From: a virus | Taxonomy: Duplodnaviria > Heunggongvirae > Uroviricota > Caudoviricetes | IMG/VR virus record: IMGVR_UViG_3300028992_000036 | DNA: 64,000 bases | Reading direction: 5' to 3' (one strand) | Shown here: positions 2,778 through 52,619 of the stretch, piece after piece | Position numbering within the stretch: the first letter of the stretch is position 1 | How the letters are laid out: each line of letters opens with the position of its first letter | Program-made: the position numbers and the translations under genes | Notes under the pieces: model-generated | Databases searched by the model: none | The model's input: only the letters and a program-made list of their open reading frames with translations | What the model was told of the DNA's origin: nothing

Positions 2778-2809
2778 TAACATAGATAACTACTTATCTA
2801 CTACACTGA

Positions 2810-3685
2810 TTAAATTTTTACATTGGTCAGTGCAGCGATAGCCTTATCGTGCTTATTCGCCAGAGAGCAGTACCACTTCACACGGGTACGTACTGCGTCT
2901 TTGTTCTGTACAGTACCAATGTTTTCAACAACGATACCTGCGTTATCGCCGCCATACAGACCAGTAACGCCGTTCTCTTCTGACAGATGCAAGCAGTAGA
3001 TGCTTGCTTTGCCAGAATCAGTCGGGATGAAGTCGTTGATGATGAACGGAACGCCGTTATGACACAGCATCGGACGACCGAAGTTCTCCATCATGATTTC
3101 AGACGGACCTACGTTTACTGTACGCAGCAGCGCACGGTAAGCACGAAGGTGCTCTGAACGCATCATGATGCAGTCAGCACCAAGATCTTTCACCGCATCG
3201 ACCAGTTCGTCGAACATAGAGAAAGTCATAGATGCACCGGCGATATCGATCTTCTGATCTGCGTGCATCAGGCGTGGAATGCCGTCAAACGCTTTGTTGT
3301 TGGTGCTGGAGTCACCCAAAATCAGATTGCGACGGAACGCACGAGCCAGACCTTTAACTTTCTGACGAACCTGAATAGCCAACTGGTTATTGGTGTCGGC
3401 CATAGTGGTTGCCAGGAATTTATCAACGTCTACGTCACCAGCCAGAATACGCAGTTTCGCAACGCATTCTTCGAAGGTTGCTGCACCTTCCGGGATGGTG
3501 TCGTTAACGTCGATGAAGGTAGCCTCACTCAGCGTTTTTTCACGGTTGTACAGATATGCCTTTGAAGTAATTTTCATAAAAGGCAGGATGGCAAACAGGT
3601 CATCGCGATCGATGATGGTTTCAATCACGCCCTGTTCAAGTTCGTTGTTAGACAGCTTTTCAGCTTCTTCACGCAGTAATGGCAT
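2810..3685 (-). CDS. major capsid protein (putative)
   Basis: 291-aa ORF directly downstream of scaffold and portal genes, followed by strong hairpin; canonical order portal-scaffold-capsid. Confidence 0.6.
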   Translation of the reverse strand: MPLLREEAEKLSNNELEQGVIETIIDRDDLFAILPFMKITSKAYLYNREKTLSEATFIDVNDTIPEGAATFEECVAKLRILAGDVDVDKFLATTMADTNNQLAIQVRQKVKGLARAFRRNLILGDSSTNNKAFDGIPRLMHADQKIDIAGASMTFSMFDELVDAVKDLGADCIMMRSEHLRAYRALLRTVNVGPSEIMMENFGRPMLCHNGVPFIINDFIPTDSGKASIYCLHLSEENGVTGLYGGDNAGIVVENIGTVQNKDAVRTRVKWYCSLANKHDKAIAALTNVKI

Positions 3686-3710
3686 CTATCAATTCCCTTT
3701 GATTTAGATG

Positions 3711-4598
3711 TTACTTAAGTCCAATTTTCCCCAGACCGGAGGCCAACTTATCCATAGTCGACTTGTTCTTCGGTTGGGATATTGTGTAGGTCGATTTGGA
3801 ATGTGAGCCTACACCCTGCTTGGCTTCGCTACGCATCAATGCGTCAGCTTCCGGATCTGCCCGCACAATGCGTTCAATCGCGGATTCAAACGGCAACGGC
3901 TTACCTTCACCGTCAACCAGAACAGCTCGTTCTTTATGACCTGCCGGTTTGTCATAACCCACTACGCTACCGTCTTCACCCACTTCAAAATGAGAACCGT
4001 AGATCACGCGGGCTTTTGCCGGAGTCATCAGAACTTTGTCACGTAGGAAGAGAGAGTTACTGAAGGAAGCGCCCACGGTCATCTCGACTAATTGAGATTT
4101 CAGTGATGCGTTTTCACTTTCCAGTGCTGCATAACGTTCGTCACGCTGTGCCAGCTCTGCCTGGTGTGCTTCGATCATCTGTTTTTTAACAGCATCGAAC
4201 TCACCACGACGCTCCAGTTCAGCTTGCTCCGCCTCACGACGTGCGTTTTCTGCGGCCTGTTCAGCTTCTAAAAGCTGGCGAGCACGCGCCGGGTCGATTT
4301 CACCGTACTGAGCAAGCTGATCGGCCAATGTGCGCTCTTTCTCTTTGCGCTTCATGTTCTCTTTCAGCAGTTCAGCACCAGCTTTCTTGATTTTGCGAAG
4401 TTCGGCCAGTAACTCTTCATGAGTCATGCCAGCGTATTCGTCATCACCCTTCGGCTGCTCTTTTTGTTCACCCTGCTTGTCAGGATCTTGTGTACTCTGC
4501 TCATTATCAGCAGCTACACCGCCAGCGCCCCCACGCTCATGCGCTTCAGCAACATCCATCAGACCACGACGGGCCAAAAGCATTTGCCACAGTTTCAT
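3711..4598 (-). CDS. head scaffolding protein (putative)
   Basis: 295 aa, highly charged with long predicted coiled-coil (AELLKENMKRKEKERTLADQLAQ..., REAEQAELERRGEF...); located between portal and capsid. Confidence 0.55.
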   Translation of the reverse strand: MKLWQMLLARRGLMDVAEAHERGGAGGVAADNEQSTQDPDKQGEQKEQPKGDDEYAGMTHEELLAELRKIKKAGAELLKENMKRKEKERTLADQLAQYGEIDPARARQLLEAEQAAENARREAEQAELERRGEFDAVKKQMIEAHQAELAQRDERYAALESENASLKSQLVEMTVGASFSNSLFLRDKVLMTPAKARVIYGSHFEVGEDGSVVGYDKPAGHKERAVLVDGEGKPLPFESAIERIVRADPEADALMRSEAKQGVGSHSKSTYTISQPKNKSTMDKLASGLGKIGLK

Positions 4599-4619
4599 AA
4601 AAATTCCCTTTGTTACTTA

Positions 4620-6194
4620 TCACTCGTTCTCTTGAGTAGATGAGTCCCCATTCCCTCGGGGTTGATCTTGCCCGCTTTCTTGGGCTGCACCACGATCATA
4701 AGTAAGTACTGACTTATTTTCAAGGGTATTTAGATCATTTTTTGGCGGAAAATTCAAGAGATCTTTATCAAATTCCTTTTTCATCGCCTCAGTAATGTTC
4801 GGGAAAATCTTCTCAATAAGCATTTCCATCTGGTGACGACGTACAGAGTCCGGTGCCTGAAGTAATGACAGTTTCTCGGCAACAGAAAATTCATCTGTAA
4901 GGCCACGAATATCGAAACTTTCTGGATACGCAATTAAAGAGTGGTCTTCGTCCAGATCTACCCCCATCCATTTCGCAACCAGTAGCATGATTTGGCGTTC
5001 AGCCCTTTCCAGACGCTCTGCTTTTGTGACAAGCAAGCTATTTACACGCTGGAAGTCATACATTTTTGCGGCACCAGATGAGTTATCAATTCCCTGTGCG
5101 TTGTCCTGCTTCGTTCGCTCACCAGCGACACCAACTGAATGGTAGATTTCGTTAATCACCGTCTTAATCGTAGTGATGATCATCTGAGCTTGTTTCGGGT
5201 CTGGTGACAAATAAAACGGCTGGTTTCCACCTTCAGAATCGTAGGTGAAGACTCGCTTTGTGCCCATTTCAAGCACTTTAGTGTGGTTTTCATCACCAGG
5301 TAAAAGCGACTGTACCGGTATAGCCAACTGGCTAAATGTCTGATCCTGAATAATGGCATCAAGGTTTGACAGATAGTTTGCAACCGCACGATCAAGATAA
5401 GCGATATCATCGATCAACGATGGGCTGAAATACGGTGATTCACTTTCTCCAATACAATCAACAGGAAACACAGGAACTACGCTGAGATTATGCTCACCGC
5501 TATCCTCTAAAATAACTTTTGCCTGACGGCGACCTGCTCCACCAGCGCCCTTCTTCACTTCCTCACGGAACAGATACCACTCGTTTTGTGTCCACAGACG
5601 ATAACGTTGGTATTCCTGACCTGTAGAAGTAAAAGGATCTGCGTCATCACGAGCGACTTCCACAATTAACGCCCACAACATATTCCCGTCGTCGTCCCAT
5701 GCCACATCCAGCATTTGCTGAGGTGAAATCCAGTAGGCGTAGGCGCGAGCATCTTTCTTTTTCTCGTCAGCTACTGACTCAACATCACCACTCATCGTGC
5801 TATCGACAACAACCCATATGCGACCGTAAATAGACGACTGCAAATCAATAGCGGCCATAAATGAGTCAATAGAGGCATTCTGGCGAGTCGCACGTTTCCA
5901 GAAATTGCGGATCTGCTCTGGTGCCTCTTCGATATTTCTATGAATGTCTTCTTTAAAGAGATATTTGTTGATGAGGTTTACCACCTCACGAGTGTGGTTG
6001 AAGCGATAAGCACGCTCAACTCGCTCCTTAAACTCCTGATCTCCCTCTTTAAAGTAACGAAAGATATTGTCTGTAAACCAACCACGCCCGCCAGCGTAAG
6101 TGCTGGCGAGGAAGTCCCAATGTTCTTTTTTCTTTTCGTATTCCGGGTGGCGTCGCGCCACCAGATCCTTAATTTGTTTGTCGTTCAATTCCAT
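4620..6194 (-). CDS. portal protein (putative)
   Basis: 524-aa ORF immediately downstream of terminase large subunit; size and position typical of portal. Confidence 0.65.
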   Translation of the reverse strand: MELNDKQIKDLVARRHPEYEKKKEHWDFLASTYAGGRGWFTDNIFRYFKEGDQEFKERVERAYRFNHTREVVNLINKYLFKEDIHRNIEEAPEQIRNFWKRATRQNASIDSFMAAIDLQSSIYGRIWVVVDSTMSGDVESVADEKKKDARAYAYWISPQQMLDVAWDDDGNMLWALIVEVARDDADPFTSTGQEYQRYRLWTQNEWYLFREEVKKGAGGAGRRQAKVILEDSGEHNLSVVPVFPVDCIGESESPYFSPSLIDDIAYLDRAVANYLSNLDAIIQDQTFSQLAIPVQSLLPGDENHTKVLEMGTKRVFTYDSEGGNQPFYLSPDPKQAQMIITTIKTVINEIYHSVGVAGERTKQDNAQGIDNSSGAAKMYDFQRVNSLLVTKAERLERAERQIMLLVAKWMGVDLDEDHSLIAYPESFDIRGLTDEFSVAEKLSLLQAPDSVRRHQMEMLIEKIFPNITEAMKKEFDKDLLNFPPKNDLNTLENKSVLTYDRGAAQESGQDQPRGNGDSSTQENE

Positions 6195-6220
6195 TTGAAT
6201 AACCTTAGATAATTACCTAC

Positions 6221-7477
6221 CTATCGAGAACCACCAAGAATAACACGGTTTTTGACTGGATACCTACGATGTACTGGATAGCCCAATGCGTCTGCACTAT
6301 GCTCAATGCCACCTGTCTTATCCATATCTCGTGTTCCAGGCTTGTAGATGACTTTTTCCAGTGAATCAATCAAATGCTTGCACTTCGGATCGATATACAA
6401 CCGGATATCTCCAGATGCGGTCATCAGCATTCGGTTAACAGCATTAACACGATCCGCAATTGGCGGGTGCTTTTTCGAATAATCGACACGTAAGAATCCC
6501 TTCTCTTTGAATATGTCGACGTCAGACTCCCCGCGAGCATGTTGGCGATAAGCACCTGCCGGATCTGGAAATACCGTTATCTGTGATTTCCAGCGCCAGA
6601 AGCGTCTCTCAAGCTCATCACAAACCTCTGCCGTGTTAGAGGAAAAGAGCACCAATTCATCAATTGCCCATAGCTCACCATTTGGCTGAGGTTGCAAAAT
6701 TACTGAAGACATCGGGTCAATGTTGAAGTCCTGCCCTACCCATATAGGCAACCGAGGGTTGAACTGAAGCGGTTTTACATGCACGTTACGATCGAACGGG
6801 TAGTAAACGCGCCCGGACATGTTCTCAAAGCTCGCCAGGTACTCCTGAGCGAACGATTTCGGGTCCATATCGTTCTTAGCAGCTTCAATTTCCGCCGTAG
6901 GCACAAACGGAGAATCGGCAGTTACAAACTGCCAGCTCTTCCACTGTCCCTTTCTTTGCAGCTCTACGTTCTGGCCTATAGTCCACAGTTTGTGAAATTC
7001 CGAGAAACCTTTTGGCGTACCAATGATAAGTGCACCGCCGCGTGTCGATGAAAGAGTAGGTCGTAACACCTTGTACCAGGTGTCAGCCTTCATATCCTGA
7101 AATTCATCAAGCACTACAAAATGCAACGCTACGCCGCGCAGAGTGTCAGGCTTATCAGCACCTTTGAGGGCGATCTCCGAACCGTTCTTCAACACGATTG
7201 TCATCGTGGTGTCGTTCTTTTTCCTAACCCACTTACGAGGCAGAACTTCCTGTAGATCGTCCCACAAAATCTGGCGAGCCATCTGGTAAGTAGGAGCGAC
7301 ATACCAGACCCTTTGCTTTTTTTCCTTTGCCGCCGCACGAATAATAGTGGAGATCGACAACCGGGATTTTCCCCAGCGTCGACCAGCACAAACAACTTTA
7401 AATCGATGCGGAGACTGGAAGACTTTCATCTGTCCAGAATGCAGTTGCACAAGACTGAGCGAGGACGGGATTGCCAT
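6221..7477 (-). CDS. terminase large subunit
   Basis: Walker A VVCAGRRWGKS, Walker B LHFVVLDEFQD, C-terminal nuclease-like acidic motifs; start overlaps small-subunit stop. Confidence 0.8.
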   Translation of the reverse strand: MAIPSSLSLVQLHSGQMKVFQSPHRFKVVCAGRRWGKSRLSISTIIRAAAKEKKQRVWYVAPTYQMARQILWDDLQEVLPRKWVRKKNDTTMTIVLKNGSEIALKGADKPDTLRGVALHFVVLDEFQDMKADTWYKVLRPTLSSTRGGALIIGTPKGFSEFHKLWTIGQNVELQRKGQWKSWQFVTADSPFVPTAEIEAAKNDMDPKSFAQEYLASFENMSGRVYYPFDRNVHVKPLQFNPRLPIWVGQDFNIDPMSSVILQPQPNGELWAIDELVLFSSNTAEVCDELERRFWRWKSQITVFPDPAGAYRQHARGESDVDIFKEKGFLRVDYSKKHPPIADRVNAVNRMLMTASGDIRLYIDPKCKHLIDSLEKVIYKPGTRDMDKTGGIEHSADALGYPVHRRYPVKNRVILGGSR

Positions 7478-8109: not shown

Positions 8110-8226
8110 AGATCCCTCTAAAACACACAGAGCGCGTCCATGCGCTCTAAAACAACTTGTTTACTGCATTTTCTAACCAACTTGTTTTCTGGGTTGTTTA
8201 ATTAGGTCTGGGCATGTCTTATTAAG

Positions 8227-8281
8227 CCTGCTTCCGTATATATTTAATAAGTTACTTATTATTTATATATACAGAAGCAGG
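8227..8281. repeat. 55-bp palindrome CCTGCTTCCGTATATA...TATATACAGAAGCAGG, copy 1 of 2
   Basis: 16-bp arms with 1 mismatch around an AT-rich loop; near-identical copy at 33724-33780; embedded in a longer imperfect inverted repeat (about 8205-8310). Confidence 0.55.
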
Positions 8282-8305
8282 TCTTTAAATAAGCTCCCAG
8301 ACCGA

Positions 8306-8572: not shown

Positions 8573-8581
8573 GGCAAATCC

Positions 8582-9472: not shown

Positions 9473-10134
9473 GAATGGACCTCATCGTGACTACCATTGT
9501 GATATTCCACCTTCACGCGTTCTTTGTAGTGCTTGGTGATCTGCATATCCGGGCGCAGCGCGTTCTTCAGGTCTTCGTGAGTCGTCGCCACCATTACCGT
9601 CGCACCAACCTTTCGAGCGGCACGCTGGAGGTTAGACGCCACAACCTGAGCGGTTACACGGTCGAGAACAGCGCCGAACTCGTCAGCAGCCCACACTTTA
9701 GCGCCTGACTCAATCAGTTTGGCAATCTTGAGACGATATTTCTGGCCGTCTGACATTTCAGAAGGCTTGCGAACAAACAGATATGCATCGTTCAGACCAG
9801 CCATAGATAACAACCCAAGCGCATCACTGGTCGTTTTGCCCAACTGATCGATGACGTTAACCTCATTATCGAAGGTAAAATCATCGATGGAGGCTACAGA
9901 CAGCCCTTCATCCTTCATCTGTCGTTGCAACTCGCGCAGCACAACGGATTTGCCGGAACCGGATTGGCCGGTGATGTACACCACATCGCCCTGCTTCACT
10001 TCCAGCTCCAGATTGTCGTAAAGCGTCCACTCTTTTTCGTCCAGGCCAAGCCCGAACGACTCAGCGATTTCCAACGTGCGCGTGGTTTTATTTACGCGTG
10101 TCTGAAACGATACGTTGATGATGTATTTGCTCAT
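9469..10134 (-). CDS. stand-alone ABC-type ATPase domain protein
   Basis: Walker A GQSGSGKS, signature-like SDGQKYRL, Walker B VWAADEF, H-loop VATTHE; 221 aa with no transmembrane partner nearby. Confidence 0.65.
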   Translation of the reverse strand: MSKYIINVSFQTRVNKTTRTLEIAESFGLGLDEKEWTLYDNLELEVKQGDVVYITGQSGSGKSVVLRELQRQMKDEGLSVASIDDFTFDNEVNVIDQLGKTTSDALGLLSMAGLNDAYLFVRKPSEMSDGQKYRLKIAKLIESGAKVWAADEFGAVLDRVTAQVVASNLQRAARKVGATVMVATTHEDLKNALRPDMQITKHYKERVKVEYHNGSHDEVHS

Positions 10135-11497: not shown

Positions 11498-11561
11498 TAA
11501 GTAATCACTTACTTATTATAATAGCCAAATAACATACAAAAGGCACTAAGGAAAGAGGTTT

Positions 11562-18511: not shown

Positions 18512-18574
18512 TTCACTCTCCGTAGTGTCTTGATTATTTTTCTATTTTATAATCGTAGGTATGTACTTACAATA

Positions 18575-28101: not shown

Positions 28102-28162
28102 GTGTTTTTCTCTTATCGTTTAGTAACTACATTCTTACATAAATTAAGTAAGCATTTACCTA

Positions 28163-32065: not shown

Positions 32066-32213
32066 GTGGACTCCATCCAGTGTCAGAAAGAGTTGCGGCT
32101 GGCGATTGCCAGCCGCCTTTCTCGTTCCATCCTGGAACTGTGTCTTACCGACACATTGTCATCCTGACGCCGATAAGATACATGATTTAAAATGATAGGT
32201 AAACACTTACTTA

Positions 32214-32804: not shown

Positions 32805-33386
32805 ATAAACTCCTGAATCAAGCGCCGCGCCGATTTTTCCTCGCGCGTGCGCACACGCGTGCGTGTTAATAATTATTAAAATAAACAAATTACTTCCCAG
32901 AACAGGTTTTTATAAACCTGAACTGAACGAACGAAGTGAGTGAAGTTCACCTCGAACGAAGTGAGAGGTTGTCTTTTCAGGTAATACTCTCCCAGGGAGG
33001 TGAGTATAAAAATCTCTCACCAACCTGGTCGTTTCATAACCTGAAAAGTTATGGTCTAAGTCTACTGCCAGCTTAGACTTGGGAAGTTATGGATGACAGC
33101 ACCCCAGAACCGAGATCTTCCCACACTTTATGAAGGGGAGTACTGGATTCAACCTCTCGAAACACCCCAGACTCGACAATCATAAAGTGACCCTTGTCTC
33201 TGCTCACTTTGGTTCCCCCTTCCCCGACACCTAAACGGCACCAGTTCTACGCTGGTAGTGAGCTTTTTTAAACCTGACGCCAGTGACGCTTACCCCCACC
33301 CATCAGGTCGAGTCTCCAGTCTACGACTGGAAACTATCAGATCTTAGCACTTACAATTCACTTTATGAATAGTTTGTACTTATCTA

Positions 33387-33723: not shown

Positions 33724-33780
33724 GCCTGCTTCCGTATATTAATAATTAATATGTAGTTATTTATATATACAGAAGCAGGC
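33724..33780. repeat. 55-bp palindrome GCCTGCTTCCGTATAT...ATATATACAGAAGCAGGC, copy 2 of 2
   Basis: Same arms as the 8227-8281 element; lies just upstream of the Dam-like methyltransferase gene. Confidence 0.55.
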
Positions 33781-34396: not shown

Positions 34397-34579
34397 CTTC
34401 TTTCTCGATAGGTAAGTAAATACCTATTTTTGCATTTGATTTTATGTCTGGCAATCAAATAAAACGCGCCAGAAATGCAAACGAGAAGCTCTCTGGCGCG
34501 TTTTTGTGGTGCTGGGTATGTGATTGGCTTACCCAGTACTATAAAGCTCTCTATGGGCTTTATTTTAAGTAGGGGAACG

Positions 34580-39231: not shown

Positions 39232-39302
39232 AAAAACCTCACAAAGATAAGTGACCACTTATTCATTAAGTGAGTTTACATTTATTGAGGGAACAAGGCC
39301 AG

Positions 39303-39333: not shown

Positions 39334-39402
39334 AAAAACGAATAGTTGTTTCAGAAATTTAACGCGCCAGCGCAATATACACAGATAGATAACTACCTAC
39401 AA

Positions 39403-40272
39403 TTATTTTTTGATCATTCCGTACATTGCTGAGGCTTTAGCTTGCTCAACAAAGGAGGATAAATCGACATCACTATAGGTTGGAGACTTCAGAATCTTTC
39501 CATCGGAAATTCGAAAACCGATCATCTTATCGGTGCCATCAGCATGGCGAAATCCCAGGTCAGAAGAGTCGTATTTGCAGTTGGCCACAGCATGGCGACG
39601 CTCTTCGGCATCTGCAGGCCATAATTTTGTCATGTTGGACCGATGAATTTCGCCAACCAGCTCGACGACATTGATACCGAGAAAATCAGCCAGTCGATAA
39701 GTCATCATGCACGCCACATAGATTTTGTTCATTACACGGCGCAGTTCCTGAATCAGCTCAGAATCCTTAACAGTCTTCTTCTCAAGTTTATCTGCCAGCT
39801 CTTCGAGCATACATGACGCCTCACGAGCTTCCTGAAATGGCATTGCCATATCATCGAAAACAGTGTTACCAGGCACAAAAATTGTCTGCATAAAGCGATC
39901 AATGCTCTGTTCCTGCGTGTAATAAGTCATGCCGGTAGAAATACCACCTTTGATGGCGACCATCGTACCAACACCAACGTATAAAAAGTCGGCCATTGCA
40001 TCCAGCAGTTGCTCAATATCCCCATTCATTGCGGCTGGAATACCTTCCACTACAGCTTCTTCATGAATCAGGCTTGCACGGAGACGAAGCAGCTCTGGTG
40101 TCGGCATAACGCGTCTCGGATGCTGGAAGAGTTCATGAAACTGATCGACCATCTTGTAAATACTTTCAGTGGCTACACCATGGCCTTCATGCAATTCATA
40201 TGGTTCTGGCTTAAATCCAATGAGTCGATCGGTGGCAAGTTTCAGGTGGTCAGTCAGTTTGGTAAAGTTCAT
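39403..40272 (-). CDS. hypothetical protein, possible MazG-like all-alpha NTP pyrophosphohydrolase
   Basis: EEAVVE (E-E-x-x-E) and DAMADFLYV motifs reminiscent of MazG/dimeric dUTPase family; nucleotide-metabolism operon context. Confidence 0.4.
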   Translation of the reverse strand: MNFTKLTDHLKLATDRLIGFKPEPYELHEGHGVATESIYKMVDQFHELFQHPRRVMPTPELLRLRASLIHEEAVVEGIPAAMNGDIEQLLDAMADFLYVGVGTMVAIKGGISTGMTYYTQEQSIDRFMQTIFVPGNTVFDDMAMPFQEAREASCMLEELADKLEKKTVKDSELIQELRRVMNKIYVACMMTYRLADFLGINVVELVGEIHRSNMTKLWPADAEERRHAVANCKYDSSDLGFRHADGTDKMIGFRISDGKILKSPTYSDVDLSSFVEQAKASAMYGMIKK

Positions 40273-40349
40273 GCTAGTTTTGTTCCTTCTTAATTCTTGT
40301 GATCCATTGTGGCCCAGCGTTGCCAGGCCACATAATGCTTTGTATCGGT

Positions 40350-41492: not shown

Positions 41493-41597
41493 GTGTTTTT
41501 CCTTTTTCTTTTTTATGTGTTTAAACAAGTTGTTATCTTATTTGTTTAAACAAGGCTTACAAATCAAAGAGAAGGTGGGGATACACCCCACCATATG

Positions 41598-43913: not shown

Positions 43914-43986
43914 GTATCACCAAATAAAGAGGGCCACTATATTTAGTGGCCCATGTTAATAGATAAGCACTTACCTATCAATGAGA

Positions 43987-44556: not shown

Positions 44557-44565
44557 ATAGTCTCC

Positions 44566-45309
44566 TTACCATGTTCCCCATAGAGGGTTTTCCAATAATC
44601 TCGCCTCCAACGAATTGGCTACTATTGCCGTTTGCAACGTTGGTTGGGGATAGTTTGCAAAGTCTGAATACTCATTTTCCTGCGTGACACGTTTATCTAC
44701 GGCATGTTTAACGCCACTTGCTATGAAATGACGCATGATGCCCAACAGCCTCCGACTGTCTGCACTATCGTTTGCTAAAACATGAGGGAGCTGAAGTTCG
44801 ATTTCTACCATTTCTCCATACTTACCAACAAACTGTAGTTTGTCCGCACTGTACTTTTTATCCCTCCTTTGGATAAGGAAACCAGTAAAAGCATCACCTG
44901 GCGATGCCAAACTATCCACCCGCTTATTGGCAAGTCGAATAAGGTTCGTGAAAGCCATACAGTGATGCGCACCCATTCCCCCAAAGAACCCTTCGCTATT
45001 AATGTTAAGATCTTCAGTTTCATGGGATGCAATAAACCCAGGCCCGACGTTGGGAAGATATCCCCCCTCAACAAAAGGATTAATCAGGATCGGCGCAATA
45101 CATCCAGGTGGTAGTGATTTCAAACTTTGCATCAATGGTGTCTCGGATATTAGACCAAGCAACGCGGCGAATTGTACTCCGTCAATATTGTTGCTGCCCC
45201 ATAGAATACGTGGAGCCGCACCATTGGAAGTATGCCCATTGATCAGTTTTATCGACTGCATCACTGCAAATACCTGCAAAAACTGCGAGCGGCTTAATTT
45301 AAACGACAT
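44566..45309 (-). CDS. hypothetical protein
   Basis: 247-aa ORF between the SbcC-like and RuvC-like genes. Confidence 0.4.
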   Translation of the reverse strand: MSFKLSRSQFLQVFAVMQSIKLINGHTSNGAAPRILWGSNNIDGVQFAALLGLISETPLMQSLKSLPPGCIAPILINPFVEGGYLPNVGPGFIASHETEDLNINSEGFFGGMGAHHCMAFTNLIRLANKRVDSLASPGDAFTGFLIQRRDKKYSADKLQFVGKYGEMVEIELQLPHVLANDSADSRRLLGIMRHFIASGVKHAVDKRVTQENEYSDFANYPQPTLQTAIVANSLEARLLENPLWGTW

Positions 45310-47215: not shown

Positions 47216-47444
47216 ATAACACCTTTGATACCGTGTGTTAGCTTTTGACCTTCTTTCAATCTGAACTCCGTATGCGCCGGGAAGGATCTGCGCCTCAATA
47301 CGCCTTTTCTGGTTAACCTTCCAAGATAAAACGCTACGGGATTTCCTTGTGGCGGGTAGGGCTTGTGAAACATCACCGTCTGGCCTCGTTCAAGTCTTTT
47401 CATCGTGATGGCAAAGTCTCGAAAGCTCCCATAACGACTTTGCC

Positions 47445-48530
47445 TCACACAGCCTCCGAACTCTCCGCTTCGGTGAGGATTTCCTGACACAAAATATCCA
47501 ACTTGCTCAGATCAAATCCGCCGTCAGTATCGTGGACAATCTTGCAATAAGCAGATACCGACTCTCCCAGGCTATCGATTTTGCTGGTTTCCGTTGTGCT
47601 TGCTGTCCCTTCCATCATTGATGACTTACGGATGAAGTTGCACACGACACCTTTTGCACCCATTGTTTTGAGGATGTTCTGGTACTTAATGCCTTCTTCA
47701 TCGTTCTCAATTACGGCGCGGAAACGCACGTAGTTGCCGCGAATTTGGTCATCGGCAACATAATCTTCCAGGTTAATGAATTTAGGCGCACTGGTTTCGT
47801 AGTGACTGAAACTGCCGTCCGGGTTTACGATCATGTAACCAGCCAGAGATCCAACATCTCCCCAATTTTGATGGGTCAGCGCACCGACACTGATAACTCC
47901 AGGAATGACCTCTTTGTGGTTGTGGTAATGCCCACTAAGCACGAGACGAAAGCCGATATCCTTTAACTCCTGCGCATCGATACCGACGTCAGGCATTGTT
48001 GGAATGGCTTTGTTAATGGATGTATGGATAACAACGTCATGGTTATCACCTTCTACGCTCTTACGTAATGCTTTCAGATCGCTGATAAGCTCCGCATGAT
48101 TGTTACGCCAGCTAATCAGGTGGACAGTCACATCACCAATTTTTATTGAGTGTGGGCGCTTGCCACATACGATTACCACGCCGATAGAACTCAGCGATGC
48201 TGCTGCGTTGGCGCTATATACTGAATCGTTGGTTTCAAGATCGTGATTACCGGCCAGCATTACTACTGTCAGATCAAGCTCGTTGATAATCCACTTGTAC
48301 GTTTCAGTTACGTAATGCAAAACAGAAGGGGACACAGTTCCTCGGACGTGAAATGTATCACCGGCAACCAACATGTACTTACAACCGGCCTTCTTCATGG
48401 CGATGGCTGCTTCTTTCGTTGCTTCCAACTGTATTTCAAGTCTGGAGTTAAGCCCCTCTGCGTTCGTCGTGGAGAACGCATCCCATTTGTGGTAGTGGCA
48501 GTCAGAAATGACGCCGTATGGCAAAGTCAT
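47445..48530 (-). CDS. SbcD/Mre11-like nuclease
   Basis: Calcineurin-like phosphoesterase motifs DCHYH, AGDTFH, GNHD. Confidence 0.8.
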   Translation of the reverse strand: MTLPYGVISDCHYHKWDAFSTTNAEGLNSRLEIQLEATKEAAIAMKKAGCKYMLVAGDTFHVRGTVSPSVLHYVTETYKWIINELDLTVVMLAGNHDLETNDSVYSANAAASLSSIGVVIVCGKRPHSIKIGDVTVHLISWRNNHAELISDLKALRKSVEGDNHDVVIHTSINKAIPTMPDVGIDAQELKDIGFRLVLSGHYHNHKEVIPGVISVGALTHQNWGDVGSLAGYMIVNPDGSFSHYETSAPKFINLEDYVADDQIRGNYVRFRAVIENDEEGIKYQNILKTMGAKGVVCNFIRKSSMMEGTASTTETSKIDSLGESVSAYCKIVHDTDGGFDLSKLDILCQEILTEAESSEAV

Positions 48531-48784
48531 GTGTTTTTCCTTTGTGGTTATTTTGATACAAATTTTAAGAGCAATGAGAAGGTAAACAACTATGCATAAC
48601 GGTATGTTAGGAATGAAACGAGCGTCTTAATATACAAAACTTATAAGTAAGTATATACCTATTTATTGTGGCGCAACTTTGCTTGTCTGTATGACTAAAA
48701 ATAAGACAGGATCACTGTAGAACGCTATGAGAGCTATTTTGAGGAGGCGTAGATTCTATCTACGCCAATATACGATCTGGAGGG

Positions 48785-49429
48785 TTACAGCGCGTCAGTG
48801 GGCTTTTTACGCGCTGCGTTTATGCTTATGACGCCAGCTTTTGGACGTGGGTCAACAAGGTTAAGCTCTTCTTCGCTGTGGTATTCGAGGTCGAACTCAC
48901 GTTTTACATGTCTGATGTAGATTGCGGTGAGCAGGCTATCTTTGGTCAGAAAGTGTCCGTAGGATTTGCGGATCACTTCTTCTACCTTCTCGATTTTCTC
49001 ACCACCCATACAGAGATGATTAAACCGGCTGTGTTTCCGCAACATTTCGTCTACTGGGCCTGAGTAAACCTTGTCTACTTTCCCAAAACGGATGATTTTC
49101 CCTGTGTCTGCGGATACGAGGCAAATCAGCTTGTCTGGTGATAAACGATCTCGCCACGTCACACCTGAACGGAGTGTGTTGAAGTAGGGAGCATCCAATC
49201 CGATGATCGGTTTACGAAATGCGAGTAATGGAACGTACCTGATGCAACTGTTTAAATGAAAATTCACACCAGCCTTATCAAGTTTAATTCTGGTTTCGTA
49301 GATCGGGCACTTCGCCGCTATACCGCAGATGTCACAAAGCAACTTCTGCTTATTCAGGTTGGAATTTGATTCGATAGTGTAGGAGCCGTCTTCAAGACGA
49401 CGAACCCAGCGCGTGCGTTTTAGATCCAT
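48785..49429 (-). CDS. hypothetical protein (CxxC-containing)
   Basis: 214-aa ORF adjacent to the origin region. Confidence 0.4.
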   Translation of the reverse strand: MDLKRTRWVRRLEDGSYTIESNSNLNKQKLLCDICGIAAKCPIYETRIKLDKAGVNFHLNSCIRYVPLLAFRKPIIGLDAPYFNTLRSGVTWRDRLSPDKLICLVSADTGKIIRFGKVDKVYSGPVDEMLRKHSRFNHLCMGGEKIEKVEEVIRKSYGHFLTKDSLLTAIYIRHVKREFDLEYHSEEELNLVDPRPKAGVISINAARKKPTDAL

Positions 49430-49513
49430 ATGTCATTTTTCTGTGATTGTTAGCCGAGGCAACGATAACCCACCAGGTGCGCCGAAGGTAGTAAATGCCT
49501 GTTTTAATTATTC

Positions 49514-49605
49514 ACATATCCACAGGATAGATCCTAATAAAGAGATCCATAGATAGATCCTTATATAGATCAAATAAGATCCCCGATCGCTGTAAGCCGC
49601 GCCAC
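49514..49605 (+). promoter_or_regulatory. origin-proximal region: DnaA-box-like ATATCCACA followed by cluster of 6 GATC sites
   Basis: Resembles organisation of P1-type oriR (DnaA box + GATC-rich AT-rich stretch) immediately upstream of iterons. Confidence 0.4.
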
Positions 49606-49628
49606 GACTGGTCTGAAGTCATGTTCAT

Positions 49629-49730
49629 GTATGCTGTCAGCGGTAATTGATAGTCTGTCAGCGGTTCACCGTATGCTGCCAACTGTTTTTGGTATTCTGT
49701 CAGCGGCAAATCAAGTATGCTGTCAGCGGT
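49629..49730 (+). repeat. origin iterons: 5 copies of (G)TATGCTGTCAGCGGT at 22-bp spacing
   Basis: Direct repeats at about 49629, 49651, 49671 (degenerate), 49693, 49715, ending 20 bp before the repA ATG. Confidence 0.75.
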
Positions 49731-49750
49731 TGAATGACAAAGGTGTCCAC

Positions 49751-50845
49751 ATGTCCACAAAAAATAAAAAAGGTAAAAATAACAAAGAAGTAGAAGATAA
49801 CATCGACAACTTTGAAGAAGGTTCCCTTGAATTGTACACAGGGGAACTTGTCCCTAATAGCAACAATACAGTCCAACCAATTGCGTTGATGCGACTGGGG
49901 TTGTTCGTCCCCACGCTTAAGGGAACAAAATACAGTAAACGTAACAAGCCAAATGAGATCGATGCTTCAAAGGAGCTTGTCCAGCTCGAAGTAGCCCGTT
50001 CTGAAGGCTATTCCGATATCAAGATAACCGGTCCTCGTCTCGACATGGATCATGATTTCAAAACGTGGGTGGGCGTTGTGCGTTCGCTGGCAGAATACGG
50101 CGAACCTAACGGTCGTGTCGAGTTAAGCATCACGAAATTTGCGAAGTTTTGTGGCTATCCATCGTCACAGATCCGCAAAACACTCCGCGACCGGCTTACA
50201 AACAGTCTTTTGAAGATCATGCGTACAACTCTGTCTTTCCAGAGAACGTATGAAGAAAAGAACGTCGACGGCTCTAACAAGATCTCGCTTCTGATGGTGC
50301 ACCTCATCAATAGCGTGGACTACAACGAGCAGAAAGATACGGTGGTGTTCTATGCAGAACCGAAGCTGGCCGAACTATATCGCTTTGACCATAAGGTTCT
50401 TTTGCAGTTAAAGGTTATCAATAAGCTACCACGCAAAGAAACAGCACAGGCTCTGTACACCTTCATCGAAAGTCTTCCAACCAAGCCTGCGCCGGTATCG
50501 CTTGCTCGATTGCGTGCGCGACTCAATTTGAGTAGCAGGAATGTCAGCTCGCAGAATCAGACTATACGTAACGGCTTAAAAGCTCTCCAAGATTTGGGCT
50601 ATCTCGAATACAGCGAGATTAAGCGTGGGCGGTCGATCTATATCCAGATTCACAGCCGCAATCCAAAACTCAAAGTCGCACCGCCAAAACCTGAAGACAT
50701 CGAACCCAAAAAACCAGATGAGAAAGCCGGGGAAATTGATGCCAAACAGAACATTATCAATAAGATAACCGAACTTTCGCAGAATTTGACGCCTGAAAAT
50801 ATCAAGATGATTGAGATCCTTTCCAATAGTCTCAAACTGCTTTGA
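49751..50845 (+). CDS. repA: plasmid replication initiator RepA-like (iteron-binding); start curated to MSTKNKKGK
   Basis: 364-aa basic protein flanked on both sides by arrays of the same 16-bp iteron; architecture of P1/F-type theta replicons. Confidence 0.7.
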   Translation: MSTKNKKGKNNKEVEDNIDNFEEGSLELYTGELVPNSNNTVQPIALMRLGLFVPTLKGTKYSKRNKPNEIDASKELVQLEVARSEGYSDIKITGPRLDMDHDFKTWVGVVRSLAEYGEPNGRVELSITKFAKFCGYPSSQIRKTLRDRLTNSLLKIMRTTLSFQRTYEEKNVDGSNKISLLMVHLINSVDYNEQKDTVVFYAEPKLAELYRFDHKVLLQLKVINKLPRKETAQALYTFIESLPTKPAPVSLARLRARLNLSSRNVSSQNQTIRNGLKALQDLGYLEYSEIKRGRSIYIQIHSRNPKLKVAPPKPEDIEPKKPDEKAGEIDAKQNIINKITELSQNLTPENIKMIEILSNSLKLL

Positions 50846-51377
50846 TATGCTGTCAGCGGTGAAATGTATGCTATCAGCGGCTATTTTTCTGAAAAGTATG
50901 CTGTGAACGGTTAAAGATATGCTACCAGCGGTATAGTGAGATGAACGTATGCTGTGAGCGGTAAATCATCTATCACCACTCAATGCTCTGCCATACCTCC
51001 CCAGTGGTTACTAACCTCGAAGAGTGCATTCCATATAGGTTTGCGCTCACTAACATTCTATTGCTATTGCGCTGATTGCTTGTAGTGAAAGGCATTTGTT
51101 GCCTGCTACTCCCTGATAGAATGTATGCTGTCAGCGGTGTTTTATTGAGGAATTTTTGTTTGGATATGCTATCAGCGGTAATTAATGGTATATGTCAGAC
51201 CTTCGTATGCTGCCAGCGGTAATTTTGTTCTGGTTATACCCATACCGGGACACATTATTCATGCAATGTCTTAAGTATGCTGTCAGCGGTAAAAAATCGA
51301 GTAAAGTATGCTGTGAGCGGTGAGATAGACTCTCGATATGCTATCAGCGGTAGTTGATTGTGTATGCTGTCAGCGGT
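50846..51377 (+). repeat. downstream iteron arrays (incA-like copy-control region): about 12 copies of GTATGCTGTCAGCGGT in two clusters
   Basis: Copies at about 50846, 50866, 50896, 50917, 50947 and 51123, 51164, 51204, 51274, 51305, 51335, 51362. Confidence 0.75.
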
Positions 51378-51424
51378 GACGACTATGAAATATGACTGCG
51401 GAACGTGCCGCAGTCAGTTTGCAT

Positions 51425-51637
51425 TTAGTGTATTTTCTTTAACAGACCCCAAAGTGTTCCGGCTTTTGTAGTCAGTTTTCCTGTTTCTGGATCGTACATA
51501 CGCCATTCACGCCGCTGGTGGACGATATACCCATCTTCACGTTCCAGACGCTCAAGAATGCCAGGCTGCTTGAAACCCTTAGCACGCCAGTAGCCGCTTG
51601 TTTTCTCGATTTCCAGACCTGCCAGTGTTAATGCCAT
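51425..51637 (-). CDS. hypothetical small protein
   Basis: 70-aa ORF whose start overlaps upstream stop. Confidence 0.4.
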   Translation of the reverse strand: MALTLAGLEIEKTSGYWRAKGFKQPGILERLEREDGYIVHQRREWRMYDPETGKLTTKAGTLWGLLKKIH

Positions 51638-51972
51638 TACCCAACCTCCTTGCAGTCATCGAAAAGGTAGCTGTCGTTCTTCGCGTGAACGCCGTATACA
51701 TCACCCGATTTGTTGTAAACGAACCTATCTTTACCTACGCCAGATAGTTCGCCGTTACGTTTAGTGAGAAACGGGGAAGACAGGACGCGATCATCGCGTA
51801 CCACATAAAACTGTTCGCCACGGTCCACAACCATCGCGCCGTAATTAGCTTTAACGGCGTTGCGGATCAGGCCGTTTTTCGCTTCGACCACAAACATTTC
51901 GCACTCATAGACATGTGTGTCCGCAAAGACGGGGAGAGTGAGCAGCGCCAGTACCAGGGCTGTTTTCTTCAT
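51637..51972 (-). CDS. secreted protein (signal peptide)
   Basis: MKKTALVLALLTLPVFA signal peptide; 111 aa. Confidence 0.45.
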   Translation of the reverse strand: MKKTALVLALLTLPVFADTHVYECEMFVVEAKNGLIRNAVKANYGAMVVDRGEQFYVVRDDRVLSSPFLTKRNGELSGVGKDRFVYNKSGDVYGVHAKNDSYLFDDCKEVG

Positions 51973-52148
51973 GCCACGACTCCTTTGAAAACGCCTAATG
52001 CTGAGTCGAAGACCAGTACTACGGCCAGCGCATTGATCATCACATCATTAACAGGCGCCAGCGCTTTACGGATTGCCCCTGTGAAGATGCAGTCGAGCAC
52101 AAAGGCTATCGAGATAATAAGTAACGTGATATCTAATAAAATTTTCAC
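51969..52148 (-). CDS. possible small hydrophobic protein (59 aa, GTG start), not in ORF track
   Basis: Translation VKILLDITLLIISIAFVLDCIFTGAIRKALAPVNDVMINALAVVLVFDSALGVFKGVVA; its TGA overlaps the ATG of the downstream secreted-protein gene; weak ribosome-binding site. Confidence 0.25.
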   Translation of the reverse strand: MKILLDITLLIISIAFVLDCIFTGAIRKALAPVNDVMINALAVVLVFDSALGVFKGVVA

Positions 52149-52187
52149 GATAGGTAAATGCTAACTTATATATTTTTGCTGTAAATA

Positions 52188-52463
52188 TCACTCAAAAGTG
52201 CTGATACCCAAAATGCGCTCAAGATGGGCCGCGTCTTCATCGCTTACCAGCATTGTGTCGTCTACGTACCAGCAGCTACCGTTGTGCCAACAAACACCGT
52301 CATCATCGATATAAATAGAATCCGCATCCATTCCTGTGTATTCAACTAGATTGCGTTCAATTGCCGCTTGAATTTCTTCATCGTTCAGCCCGTCGCACTT
52401 GATCATGAACAACGGGTAAACGTCATAGTCGGTACTAGATGAAATGCGAACCAAAGTCTTCAT
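52188..52463 (-). CDS. hypothetical protein (start curated to MKTLVRIS)
   Basis: AAGGAG Shine-Dalgarno before internal ATG; upstream palindromic motif. Confidence 0.45.
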   Translation of the reverse strand: MKTLVRISSSTDYDVYPLFMIKCDGLNDEEIQAAIERNLVEYTGMDADSIYIDDDGVCWHNGSCWYVDDTMLVSDEDAAHLERILGISTFE

Positions 52464-52619
52464 GTGTTTTCTCCTTGTTGGTAAGTACTTATCTATCTTA
52501 ATGGGCGCTATAAGGCGCACAATCATTGTGTTCAGGCTGGTGGAAAGAACTTCTCCAGCGTGTGGTTGATAGCCTTATCAATGTGCATCAGGTGCCAGAC
52601 GACCATATCTTTGCTTCCA

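What the first reader, a model, noticed from the sequence alone, without database searches (positions are those of the whole stretch)
2783..52498. Second dispersed palindromic motif family GATAGGTAAGTnCTTACCTATC-like in intergenic regions
Imperfect palindromes of this type occur at about 2783, 6205, 11497, 18555, 28133, 32190, 33372, 34404, 39383, 43953, 48640 and 52476. They are always intergenic, in either orientation, often next to terminator hairpins or just upstream of ribosome-binding sites (for example before portal, nrdA and the 52188 gene). The distribution resembles multi-copy operators of a phage master repressor such as the P1 C1 operators, or a conserved promoter element.
Basis: seen in the sequence. 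Interest (0 to 1): 0.45.

Follow-up and report, generated by a model that had tools for sequence, protein, structure and literature searches.

The report
Host SlmA-site array on a phage-plasmid
The repeated palindrome is real, is conserved across a whole family of phage-plasmids, and matches the DNA site bound by the host's cell-division inhibitor SlmA, which suggests that the element loads this host protein onto itself about 30 times over.

Summary
The window is an SSU5-type phage-plasmid of E. coli. It holds 19 copies of an 18-26 bp palindrome, consensus (ATGA)TAGGTAAGTACTTACCTA(TCAT). Sixteen lie in spacers, against 0.08 expected from spacer composition. The whole element has about 33 copies. 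Salmonella phage SSU5 has about 26 and Klebsiella pJN2-26 about 30, at the same gene junctions and with the same consensus. P1 and N15 have none.

The two halves are symmetric and vary independently, with no compensatory changes and no G:U preference. The motif therefore reads as a double-stranded DNA site for a symmetric dimer. It is not an RNA hairpin or a promoter. There is no P1 C1 homologue and there are no C1-type operators.

The 12-bp core GTAAGTACTTAC is the G3A variant of the SlmA-binding sequence, which was measured at Kd about 60 nM. The flanks TAA...TTA match the 20-bp ChIP consensus. The elements encode no SlmA homologue and no recognisable conserved DNA-binding regulator.

My best reading (confidence about 0.6) is an array of binding sites for host SlmA. 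The array would couple the element to control of cell division, and SlmA might also serve as a borrowed repressor. Binding is inferred and was not shown. Two points count against it: the sites are almost all intergenic, and A is used almost exclusively where SlmA tolerates either A or G.

The parts
2783..2800 (.). Site TAGATAACTACTTATCTA. It lies between the major capsid gene (2810-3685, minus strand) and the Ig-domain gene, just upstream (in the direction of transcription) of a terminator hairpin.
   Evidence: PWM 21.6 bits; SBS rule 9/12. Context. Orthologous sites at SSU5 5472 and Kp 44027.
4699..4716 (.). Site TAAGTAAGTACTGACTTA inside the 3' end of the portal gene (4620-6194, minus strand). 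This is the only clearly intragenic site.
   Evidence: PWM 27.3 bits; SBS rule 11/12, critical positions 8/8. The 18-mer is identical in SSU5 (3545) and Kp (42094).
6206..6223 (.). Site TAGATAATTACCTACCTA at the junction of the terminase stop codon and the portal start, 12 nt before the portal ATG.
   Evidence: PWM 19.1 bits; rule 9/12. Orthologous sites at SSU5 2032 and Kp 40581 differ in sequence but keep the consensus.
8248..8265 (.). Weak, doubtful match (TAAGTTACTTATTATTTA) inside a separate AT-rich repeat upstream of the small-terminase-like gene.
   Evidence: PWM 20.2 bits but SBS rule only 7/12. It is part of the repeat seen twice per genome.
11498..11515 (.). Site TAAGTAATCACTTACTTA in the divergent spacer between the helicase/FljA-like operon (11562 onward, plus strand) and the ParB_N gene pair (10131-11479, minus strand).
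   Evidence: PWM 22.9 bits; rule 11/12. Orthologues at SSU5 99799 and Kp 34780.
18556..18573 (.). Site TAGGTATGTACTTACAAT, located after a terminator and 45 nt upstream of a small gene (18116-18511, minus strand).
   Evidence: PWM 15.0 bits; rule 11/12. Orthologues at SSU5 93166 and Kp 28032.
28145..28162 (.). Site TAAGTAAGCATTTACCTA, directly after the stop codon of the DUF4942 gene (28163-29848, minus strand).
   Evidence: PWM 26.5 bits; rule 11/12. Orthologues at SSU5 84179 and Kp 20936.
32196..32213 (.). Site TAGGTAAACACTTACTTA, directly after the rnhA stop codon (32214-32804, minus strand).
   Evidence: PWM 27.8 bits; rule 11/12. Orthologues at SSU5 79905 and Kp 16843.
33369..33386 (.). 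Site ATAGTTTGTACTTATCTA, with one good half only, directly after a small gene (33387-33641).
   Evidence: PWM 22.1 bits; rule 9/12.
33746..33763 (.). Weak AT-rich match TTAATATGTAGTTATTTA downstream of the adenine methyltransferase gene.
   Evidence: PWM 22.4 bits, driven by the flanks; rule 8/12. Orthologues at SSU5 78320 and Kp 15286.
34409..34426 (.). Site TAGGTAAGTAAATACCTA, 12 nt upstream of the ATG of the N6-adenine methyltransferase gene (33803-34396, minus strand).
   Evidence: PWM 27.5 bits; rule 10/12. A sigma-70-like -10 element abuts it. Orthologues at SSU5 77652 and Kp 14622.
39248..39265 (.). Site TAAGTGACCACTTATTCA, about 17 nt upstream of thyA. Its left half carries the canonical GTGAC form seen in E. 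coli SBS17.
   Evidence: PWM 19.2 bits; rule 10/12. Orthologues at SSU5 72512 and Kp 9790.
39386..39403 (.). Weak site TAGATAACTACCTACAAT overlapping the stop codon of the pyrophosphohydrolase gene (39403-40272, minus strand).
   Evidence: PWM 14.3 bits; rule 9/12.
43960..43977 (.). Site TAGATAAGCACTTACCTA, between an RNase-H-like gene and nrdA, immediately upstream of a terminator hairpin (43931-43952).
   Evidence: PWM 29.4 bits, the best in the window; rule 11/12. Hairpin. Orthologues at SSU5 67776 and Kp 5036.
48644..48661 (.). Site TAAGTAAGTATATACCTA, upstream of the sbcD-like metallophosphoesterase gene.
   Evidence: PWM 25.6 bits; rule 10/12. Orthologues at SSU5 63081 and Kp 344.
52118..52135 (.). 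Weak partner site TAAGTAACGTGATATCTA, 33 bp from the next site.
   Evidence: PWM 16.6 bits; rule 6/12.
52151..52168 (.). Site TAGGTAAATGCTAACTTA in the spacer before the small genes that precede the RepB replication region.
   Evidence: PWM 22.4 bits; rule 10/12. Orthologues at SSU5 58075 and Kp 104806.
52478..52495 (.). Site TTGGTAAGTACTTATCTA, 15 nt upstream of the annotated ATG of a small gene (52188-52463, minus strand).
   Evidence: PWM 24.0 bits; rule 11/12. Gene start taken from the annotation of CP057685.1.
61965..61982 (.). Site TGAGTAAGTGTTTATATA, located after a terminator and upstream of a small gene.
   Evidence: PWM 18.9 bits; rule 10/12. Orthologue at SSU5 55696.

Best explanation
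The palindromes are binding sites on double-stranded DNA for the host nucleoid-occlusion factor SlmA. [quoted passage not shown] The SSU5-type phage-plasmid carries about 30 such sites, roughly one every 3.4 kb of its conserved core, which is about as many as the whole E. coli chromosome (24-52). What is shown: the motif is real, symmetric and conserved across elements from three host genera; its consensus equals a measured high-affinity SlmA site; and its flanks equal the ChIP-derived consensus. What is inferred: SlmA dimer-of-dimers occupy these sites in the cell. The consequences are also inferred. (a) In the plasmid-prophage state the element behaves like nucleoid DNA, so a Z-ring cannot assemble over it until its copies have been partitioned away from mid-cell. 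(b) During lytic replication, hundreds of copies spread activated SlmA through the cytoplasm and block division, as a multicopy plasmid with two such sites does experimentally. (c) Because the sites sit in spacers, often 11-20 nt before a ribosome-binding site or overlapping -10/-35-like hexamers, bound SlmA may also act as a borrowed repressor or roadblock, whose grip loosens as copy number outgrows the SlmA pool.
For: Enrichment and conservation.

Symmetry of the core, with no covariation between mirrored positions (Fisher p=0.35 and 0.75) and no excess of sense-strand G:T over A:C combinations (14 vs 18; 12 vs 16). This points to a dimer on dsDNA.

SlmA specificity from the literature: Tonthat 2011 (PMC3020112) gives the SBS as GTGAGTACTCAC, with G, T, A, G required at positions 1, 2, 4 and 5. 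Position 3 accepts any purine (G to A gives Kd about 60 nM against about 50 nM), and position 6 accepts any pyrimidine. The motif core GTAAGTACTTAC is exactly that G3A variant. The Cho-derived consensus oligo AAGTAAGTGAGCGCTCACTTACGT (PMC4423959) has the same TAA...TTA flanks. Centre-aligned over 18 bp, 14 positions are identical and 4 fall within the allowed degeneracy.

Cross-scoring: the SBScons and SBS17 oligos score 13.9 and 13.3 bits on the element's own matrix. Of 89 sites, 67 reach at least 10/12 of the literature rule, which equals validated SBS17 and SBS12. Pyrimidine at core position 6 occurs in 95% of half-sites, purine at position 3 in 90%, and T at position 2 in 99%.

Controls: P1 and N15 have 0 matrix hits and 1 and 0 rule matches of at least 11/12, against 11-18 in the three SSU5-type genomes.

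Binder candidates: there is no SlmA homologue in the elements (query sequence validated). The HTH/integrase module is absent from SSU5. No DNA-binding Pfam domain was found in 28 conserved proteins of unknown function. The FljA-like protein has a tandem Hfq-like fold. A host factor explains why the consensus is identical in E. coli, Salmonella and Klebsiella elements. The SlmA recognition helix and the SlmA-SBS structures are conserved in these genera (PMC3020112; PMC4726725).

Functional precedent: a multicopy plasmid with tandem SBS plus SlmA gives a lethal division block, and an SBS placed between -35 and -10 represses a reporter (PMC3573117). An SBS array placed in Ter delays division.

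Distribution: sites are confined to the conserved core. The type I R-M island and the IS/metG cargo have none.
Against: No binding data exist for these sites, so the link rests on sequence identity to a measured site.

At SBS core position 3 the element uses A in 88% of half-sites and G in about 2%, although SlmA tolerates both. This suggests an added constraint or a different reader.

Flank positions T1 and A2 (94% and 88%) are more conserved than core positions 4 and 5 (74% and 65%), which Tonthat found critical. About 20% of half-sites have A instead of the required G at core position 1. This is especially common in the E. coli element.

Only 1, 3 and 6 sites per genome meet the strict 12/12 rule.

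About 90% of sites are intergenic, whereas 22 of 24 chromosomal SBSs are intragenic and none lies in a promoter.

Even spacing is significant only in the E. coli element.

An unrecognised element-encoded DNA-binding protein cannot be excluded.
Confidence: 0.6

Rival explanations
1. The sites are operators of an element-encoded symmetric DNA-binding regulator, acting as a global repressor or silencer in the manner of RK2 KorA/KorB or the phiC31 c repressor. The resemblance to the SlmA site would then be coincidental or mimicry. Candidates are the two ParB_N proteins encoded next to one site, or an unrecognised small protein.
For: The sites are symmetric dsDNA sites. They are almost all intergenic, often just upstream of ribosome-binding sites or next to terminators. 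One site sits in the divergent spacer before the conserved ParB_N pair. ParB_N protein A carries the GxxRxxA box and aligns with Spo0J and Noc. The A-only preference at core position 3 and the strong flank conservation go beyond what SlmA is known to require.
Against: No HTH or RHH domain is detectable in the ParB_N proteins beyond the N-terminal domain. No DNA-binding Pfam domain was found in 28 conserved core proteins. The only clear HTH regulator is missing from SSU5, which keeps 26-30 strong sites. A separate palindrome family, AAACAA-N-TTGTTT, is available as the operator of an element-encoded regulator. An 18-position match to a host protein's measured site is unlikely to arise by chance.
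Confidence: 0.25
2. The motif works as an RNA hairpin in the mRNAs. It would act as a translational operator or stability element, bound for example by the element's FljA-family protein, whose relatives repress fliC mRNA translation.
For: The window encodes a full-length FljA-family protein (PF03614, E=1.5e-84) with two Hfq-like Sm domains. Several sites lie 11-20 nt upstream of start codons. The FljA family acts post-transcriptionally (PMC2652032).
Against: There is no covariation between the arms. A:C combinations on the sense strand are as frequent as G:U. Sequence, not pairing, is what is conserved. Many sites lie more than 90 nt from the next start codon or follow the stop codon of the upstream gene. 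The E. coli fliC 5'UTR has no match (best 2.9 bits).
Confidence: 0.05
3. The motif is a promoter element, or a six-frame stop or module-boundary 'punctuation' sequence, maintained by recombination rather than by a binding protein.
For: The motif is rich in TAA/TAG and often abuts or supplies stop codons. Stop-rich (TAAG)n-TAC-(TTAC)n palindromes occur singly in unrelated viral and bacterial contigs. A few sites overlap sigma-70-like hexamers.
Against: The palindrome has no polarity. Its distance to start codons is variable, and some sites sit before terminators. Promoter-like matches are not enriched. Positions with no role in stop codons (G4, T5, C15, the Y9/R10 centre) are strongly conserved, and orthologous sites differ in sequence yet keep the consensus.
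Confidence: 0.05

Closest known systems
SlmA-binding sequences (SBS) of the E. coli chromosome
   Same: Palindromic dsDNA site. The core GT(R)AG(Y)(R)CT(Y)AC and the flanks TAA...TTA are as in the 12-bp REPSA consensus and the 20-bp ChIP consensus. The per-site quality (at least 10/12 of the rule) equals that of the validated sites SBS17 and SBS12.
   Different: The density is about 30 per 110 kb, against 24-52 per 4.6 Mb. About 90% of sites are intergenic, whereas about 8% of chromosomal sites are. A is used almost exclusively at core position 3. The sites are on a mobile element rather than on the chromosome.
Synthetic multicopy SBS plasmids (pUC-2xSBS, p2SBSK)
   Same: Extrachromosomal DNA carrying SBSs. 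It delocalises activated SlmA and blocks division when SlmA is mildly overproduced.
   Different: Those plasmids are laboratory constructs with 2 sites. Here a natural element has about 30 sites, is low-copy in lysogeny and presumably reaches high copy only during lytic growth.
P1 C1 operators
   Same: Many dispersed operator-like sites on an enterobacterial phage-plasmid.
   Different: C1 operators are asymmetric 17-mers (ATTGCTCTAATAAATTT). No C1 homologue is present and 0-1 such sequences were found.
RK2 KorA/KorB operators; phiC31 conserved inverted repeats; mycobacteriophage stoperators (from my own knowledge)
   Same: A dozen or more copies of one short site, spread over a mobile element in spacers and giving global control through one protein.
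   Different: In those systems the binder is encoded by the element. Here no conserved element-encoded candidate is recognisable, and the site matches a host protein. Stoperators are asymmetric and orientation-dependent.
Noc-binding sites (NBS) of Bacillus subtilis
   Same: Palindromic nucleoid-occlusion sites. A multicopy plasmid carrying one NBS causes a division defect.
   Different: The protein family is unrelated (ParB) and the sequence differs (ATTTCCCGGGAAAT).

Membership tests
SlmA-binding sequence (SBS) | 12-bp palindromic core with G, T, A, G at positions 1, 2, 4 and 5, a purine at position 3 and a pyrimidine at position 6 | tested here: met
   The consensus core GTAAGTACTTAC is the measured G3A variant. 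Half-site frequencies are G 79%, T 99%, purine 90%, A 74%, G 65%, pyrimidine 95%. Of 89 sites, 67 reach at least 10/12, equal to SBS17 and SBS12. Only 10 sites reach 12/12.
SlmA-binding sequence (SBS) | Flanks as in the 20-bp ChIP-derived consensus GTAAGTGAGCGCTCACTTAC | tested here: met
   The flanks are T1 A2 R3 ... Y16 T17 A18. The SBScons and SBS17 oligos score 13.9 and 13.3 bits on the element's matrix. The outermost position is A rather than G in 78% of sites.
SlmA-binding sequence (SBS) | Bound by SlmA in vitro and in vivo | not testable with these tools
   This needs EMSA or fluorescence polarisation, and ChIP-seq in a lysogen.
SlmA-binding sequence (SBS) | The host encodes SlmA with a conserved recognition helix | not tested
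   Taken from the literature only. The recognition helix is conserved in E. coli, Salmonella, Klebsiella and Enterobacter (PMC3020112), and there are Klebsiella SlmA-SBS structures. The element itself has no SlmA homologue.
SlmA-binding sequence (SBS) | Genomic placement typical of chromosomal SBSs: mostly inside genes, not in promoters | tested here: not met
   Only 3-5 of 26-33 sites lie in ORFs at 89% coding density, against 22 of 24 intragenic sites in E. coli.
P1 C1 repressor / operator system | A C1 homologue and asymmetric 17-bp operators ATTGCTCTAATAAATTT | tested here: not met
   tblastn gives no hit at E<=1. There are 0, 0 and 1 operator-like sequences, against 17 in P1. The motif is symmetric.
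Promoter element | Polarity, and a fixed offset from the transcription or translation start | tested here: not met
   The core is symmetric. Offsets run from 11 to about 200 nt, and some sites precede terminators. Sigma-70-like matches number 17 against 27 expected.
RNA hairpin operator (FljA-type translational control) | Base pairing maintained by compensatory or wobble changes | tested here: not met
   Fisher p=0.35 and 0.75 for the two variable mirrored pairs. A:C combinations (18, 16) are at least as frequent as G:T (14, 12) on the sense strand.
ParB/KorB-type dispersed sites | A ParB-family protein with an HTH that reads a 13-16 bp palindrome | tested here: inconclusive
   Two ParB_N proteins are conserved. 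Protein A has the GxxRxxA box. No HTH domain is detected, and the alignment to Spo0J beyond residue 100 is weak.

The most novel reading that the evidence does not exclude
A widespread family of enterobacterial phage-plasmids (SSU5, pHCM2-like) has no conventional master-repressor system for these sites. Instead it hijacks the host nucleoid-occlusion protein through DNA alone. An array of about 30 SlmA sites makes the element invisible to, or dominant over, the division machinery. It acts as a division checkpoint for plasmid segregation during lysogeny and as a protein-free division block during lytic amplification. At the same time it uses SlmA as a copy-number-titratable silencer of phage operons.
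Probability: 0.3. Interest if true: 0.85.

Novelty: new variant of a known kind. Interest (0 to 1): 0.7.

Why it matters
SlmA sites are known only as chromosomal landmarks that keep the septum off unsegregated DNA. A natural mobile element carrying as many high-quality sites as the whole chromosome would be the first case of a phage or plasmid exploiting nucleoid occlusion through cis-acting DNA. It would have consequences for plasmid stability, for host cell division during lysogeny and lysis, and for the cell's SlmA budget: about 120 monomers per element copy out of a pool of a few hundred to about a thousand. SSU5-type elements are common in clinical E. coli, Klebsiella and Salmonella, including Typhi pHCM2, and they carry resistance genes. 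A host dependency of this kind would be a testable handle on their maintenance. The prediction can be checked in days with purified SlmA and a slmA deletion lysogen. No paper in the searched library links SlmA to phages or natural plasmids.

Tried and rejected
1. I replaced it with an 18-bp consensus and a weight matrix.

2. FljA-like protein as the binder. It was attractive because the FljA family represses fliC mRNA. I rejected it for the DNA motif because the arms show no covariation, the fliC 5'UTR has no match, and the protein is a tandem Hfq-like fold without an HTH. The Yamamoto & Kutsukake paper could not be read.

3. HTH regulator beside the integrase. It has a motif-like site in its own divergent spacer, but the whole module is absent from SSU5.

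4. P1 C1 system. There is no homologue and there are no operators.

5. Promoter scan. It gave no enrichment and no fixed register.

6. Scan of viral contigs for the exact 18-mer. Multi-site loci are all SSU5-like. The others are single (TAAG)n palindromes.

7. Scan of genome contigs.

8. Regular spacing of sites. It is significant only in the E. coli element.

9. Supplement of Tonthat 2011 and the Cho 2011 paper. Neither is held, so the full list of chromosomal SBSs could not be compared.

10. Identity and host of the uncultivated contigs that carry canonical SBS 20-mers. No cultured relative was found.

11. Pfam survey of 28 conserved unknown proteins for a DNA-binding domain. None was found.


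Full report
WHAT THE WINDOW IS. Window 40000-60000 is 100% identical to E. coli plasmid pRHB17-C18_2 (CP057685.1, 112 kb). It is 96% identical to phage Cyrano, and 76-78% identical to Salmonella phage SSU5 and to Klebsiella phage-plasmids. The window is therefore about 57% of an SSU5-type phage-plasmid. Most genes lie on the minus strand. They include capsid, portal and terminase genes, a nucleotide-metabolism block (nrdAB, thyA, folA), RepB, a type I R-M island, and a small plus-strand operon.

THE OBSERVATION. The consensus is an 18-bp palindrome, TAGGTAAGTACTTACCTA, which extends weakly to ATGA...TCAT.
- At up to 4 mismatches there are 12 copies in the window against 0.1 expected.
- A weight matrix finds 19 sites in the window and about 33-35 in the whole plasmid, against fewer than 1 expected window.
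- Restricting the test to the window's own spacers, with a null model trained on them, gives 16 observed against 0.08 expected. AT-rich spacer composition does not explain the sites.
- SSU5 and Klebsiella pJN2-26 are about 22-24% diverged at the DNA level. They carry 26-30 and 30-35 sites with the same consensus at the same junctions: terminase/portal, inside the 3' end of portal, after the major capsid gene, before nrdA, before the adenine methyltransferase gene, and after rnhA. The individual sequences often differ. That pattern indicates selection on the motif itself.
- Sites are absent from the accessory cargo, namely the type I R-M island and the IS/metG region.
- About 90% of sites are intergenic at 89% coding density. 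One third of all spacers of at least 30 bp hold a site. Median spacing is 3.1-3.6 kb.

WHAT KIND OF SITE. I pooled 89 sites and oriented them by the direction of transcription.
- The 18-bp core is two-fold symmetric. Only the outer flanks differ.
- The two variable mirrored pairs (positions 3/16 and 4/15) assort independently (Fisher p=0.35 and 0.75).
- On the sense strand, A:C combinations (18, 16) are as common as G:T (14, 12).

Pairing is therefore not under selection, which argues against an RNA hairpin or a cruciform. Each half matches a consensus independently, which is the signature of a symmetric dimer on double-stranded DNA. A promoter is unlikely for three reasons. The motif has no polarity. 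The distance from motif to start codon ranges from about 11 to about 200 nt. Several sites lie upstream of a terminator hairpin, for example after the capsid gene and before nrdA.

WHO BINDS IT: ELEMENT-ENCODED CANDIDATES.
- P1 C1: there is no homologue and there are no C1-type operators.
- The only clear HTH regulator lies beside an integrase, outside the window. It has a motif-like site in its own divergent spacer, but the whole module is missing from SSU5.
- The window's plus-strand operon encodes a full-length FljA-family protein. That family represses fliC mRNA post-transcriptionally (PMC2652032). The AlphaFold model (pLDDT 82) shows two tandem Sm domains, and all top structural matches are Hfq. 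It is an RNA binder without an HTH, and the E. coli fliC leader has no match to the motif.
- Two conserved ParB_N proteins are encoded next to one site. One has the GxxRxxA box, but no HTH is detectable.
- Twenty-eight further conserved proteins of unknown function show no DNA-binding Pfam domain.
- A second palindrome family, AAACAA-N-TTGTTT, has 6 copies in the window. It is available as the operator of an element-encoded regulator.

WHO BINDS IT: THE HOST. The centre of the motif, GTAAGTACTTAC, recalled the SlmA-binding sequence, and I checked this against the literature.
- Tonthat et al. 2011 (PMC3020112) defined the SBS as GTGAGTACTCAC. G, T, A and G at positions 1, 2, 4 and 5 are required. 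Position 3 accepts either purine (G to A gives Kd about 60 nM against about 50 nM). Position 6 accepts either pyrimidine. The element's consensus core is exactly that measured G3A variant.
- The consensus oligo derived from the ChIP study of Cho et al., AAGTAAGTGAGCGCTCACTTACGT (PMC4423959), also carries the flanks TAA...TTA. Centre-aligned over 18 bp, 14 positions are identical and the other 4 are the permitted purine or pyrimidine alternatives.
- That oligo and the natural site SBS17 score 13.9 and 13.3 bits on the element's matrix, which is site level.
- Using only the literature rule, 67 of 89 sites reach at least 10/12. This is the score of the validated natural sites SBS17 and SBS12.
- Matches of at least 11/12 number 11-18 per SSU5-type genome, against 1 in P1 and 0 in N15.
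- The elements encode no SlmA homologue (the query sequence was validated against PDB entry 3nxc).
- The SlmA recognition helix and the SlmA-SBS complexes are conserved in E. coli, Salmonella, Klebsiella and Vibrio. A host reader thus explains why elements from three genera share one consensus while their own regulators differ.

WHAT SPEAKS AGAINST SLMA.
- Nothing here shows binding.
- A is used almost exclusively (88%, with G about 2%) where SlmA accepts A or G.
- Flank positions 1-2 are more conserved than core positions 4-5.
- One fifth of half-sites, mostly in the E. coli element, have A in place of the required G at core position 1.
- Strict 12/12 matches are few: 1, 3 and 6 per genome.
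- Chromosomal SBSs are mostly intragenic and avoid promoters, whereas these sites are nearly all in spacers.

The A-rich version contains TAA/TAG in two of three frames. This explains part of the exclusion from genes but not why that version is used. These points leave room for an extra function at the spacers, or for a different reader.

HOW IT WOULD WORK (inferred). SlmA binds an SBS as a dimer of dimers, and DNA binding activates it to disassemble FtsZ polymers. A cell has a few hundred to about a thousand SlmA monomers and 24-52 chromosomal sites. One copy of the element would roughly double the number of sites and take up about 120 monomers.

Published experiments show three relevant effects. 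An SBS array placed in Ter delays division. A multicopy plasmid with two SBSs delocalises SlmA and, with mild SlmA overproduction, blocks division lethally. An SBS between -35 and -10 represses transcription.

By analogy, the array could have three effects. It could keep the septum from forming over unsegregated copies of the element. It could block division when the element amplifies during lytic growth. At spacers where it abuts -10-like hexamers or lies 11-20 nt before a ribosome-binding site, it could let SlmA act as a titratable repressor or roadblock. Examples are the sites at 34409 and 43960 and the sites before portal, thyA and the methyltransferase gene. Which of these effects matters is open.

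NOVELTY. SlmA sites themselves are known. A dense, conserved natural array on a phage-plasmid is not described in the searched library. I class it as a new variant of a known kind, with the caveat that the binder is predicted.

A side observation hints that the phenomenon may be wider. A group of unrelated uncultivated viral contigs carries two strong canonical sites each, including perfect copies of the 20-bp consensus GTAAGTGAGCGCTCACTTAC. Their host could not be determined.

Noticed in passing
window 8150-8162, 18961-18973, 23279-23291, 23330-23342, 30575-30587, 31304-31316: A different dispersed perfect palindrome, AAACAA-N-TTGTTT. It has 6 copies in the window against 0.02 expected, and 9 in the whole plasmid.
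   Followed up: partly
window 13898-14422 (+): A full-length FljA-family protein (PF03614, E=1.5e-84), conserved at 79-83% identity in SSU5 and Klebsiella elements. The AlphaFold model shows two tandem Sm domains, and all top PDB matches are Hfq. No solved structure matches by sequence. This suggests that FljA-type fliC repressors are Hfq-like RNA binders. In this element it may be a lysogenic-conversion gene that silences host flagellin.
   Followed up: partly
window about 8233-8265; second copy at CP057685.1 49172-49204 (outside the window): An identical AT-rich 33-bp repeat, TATATAAATAATAAGTAACTTATTAAATATATA, with its own inner palindrome (AATAAGT-A-ACTTATT). It occurs twice per genome, upstream of the small-terminase-like gene and of the gene preceding the DnaB-like helicase. 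It is also present in SSU5 and Klebsiella pJN2-26.
   Followed up: no
window 10131-11479 (-): Two adjacent ParB_N-domain proteins, the first with a GGEHRWRAA arginine box like CTP-binding ParB/Noc. They are followed by an ABC-type ATPase, upstream of the terminase genes, and are 87-90% conserved across the family. Their function is unknown. They are distinct from the element's ParA partition module.
   Followed up: partly
window 21550-22823 (+): An IS3-family insertion sequence (orfA with HTH_Tnp_1, orfB with rve), about 1.3 kb. It is absent from the otherwise identical plasmid CP057685.1, so the window comes from a near-identical sibling plasmid.
   Followed up: partly
window 52628-53260 and 53112-53148: A fragment 98% identical to IS911, as found in Shigella phages Sf6 and SfII, and a run of N (masked bases) at 53112-53148.
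   Followed up: no
window 53340-61339 (-): A type I restriction-modification island (hsdR, DUF4268, hsdS, hsdM) with no copy of the motif. The IS/metG cargo region at about 19000-27900 also has none. The motif is confined to the conserved phage core.
   Followed up: yes
CP057685.1 63535-63552 (outside the window); Kp MZ779062 90500: The XRE-type HTH regulator beside the integrase has a motif-like site (CTGGTAAGTGCTTACCGA) in its divergent spacer with a small cro-like ORF. The inner 14 bp form a perfect palindrome. The module is absent from SSU5.
   Followed up: partly
L211:11708-11725, L214:143-160, L213:12590-12607 and 13905-13922, L209:47-64 and 1717-1734: Uncultivated viral contigs unrelated to SSU5 carry two strong canonical SlmA-site consensus sequences each, including perfect 20-mers GTAAGTGAGCGCTCACTTAC. 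The host is unknown. This hints that other phages may also carry such sites.
   Followed up: partly
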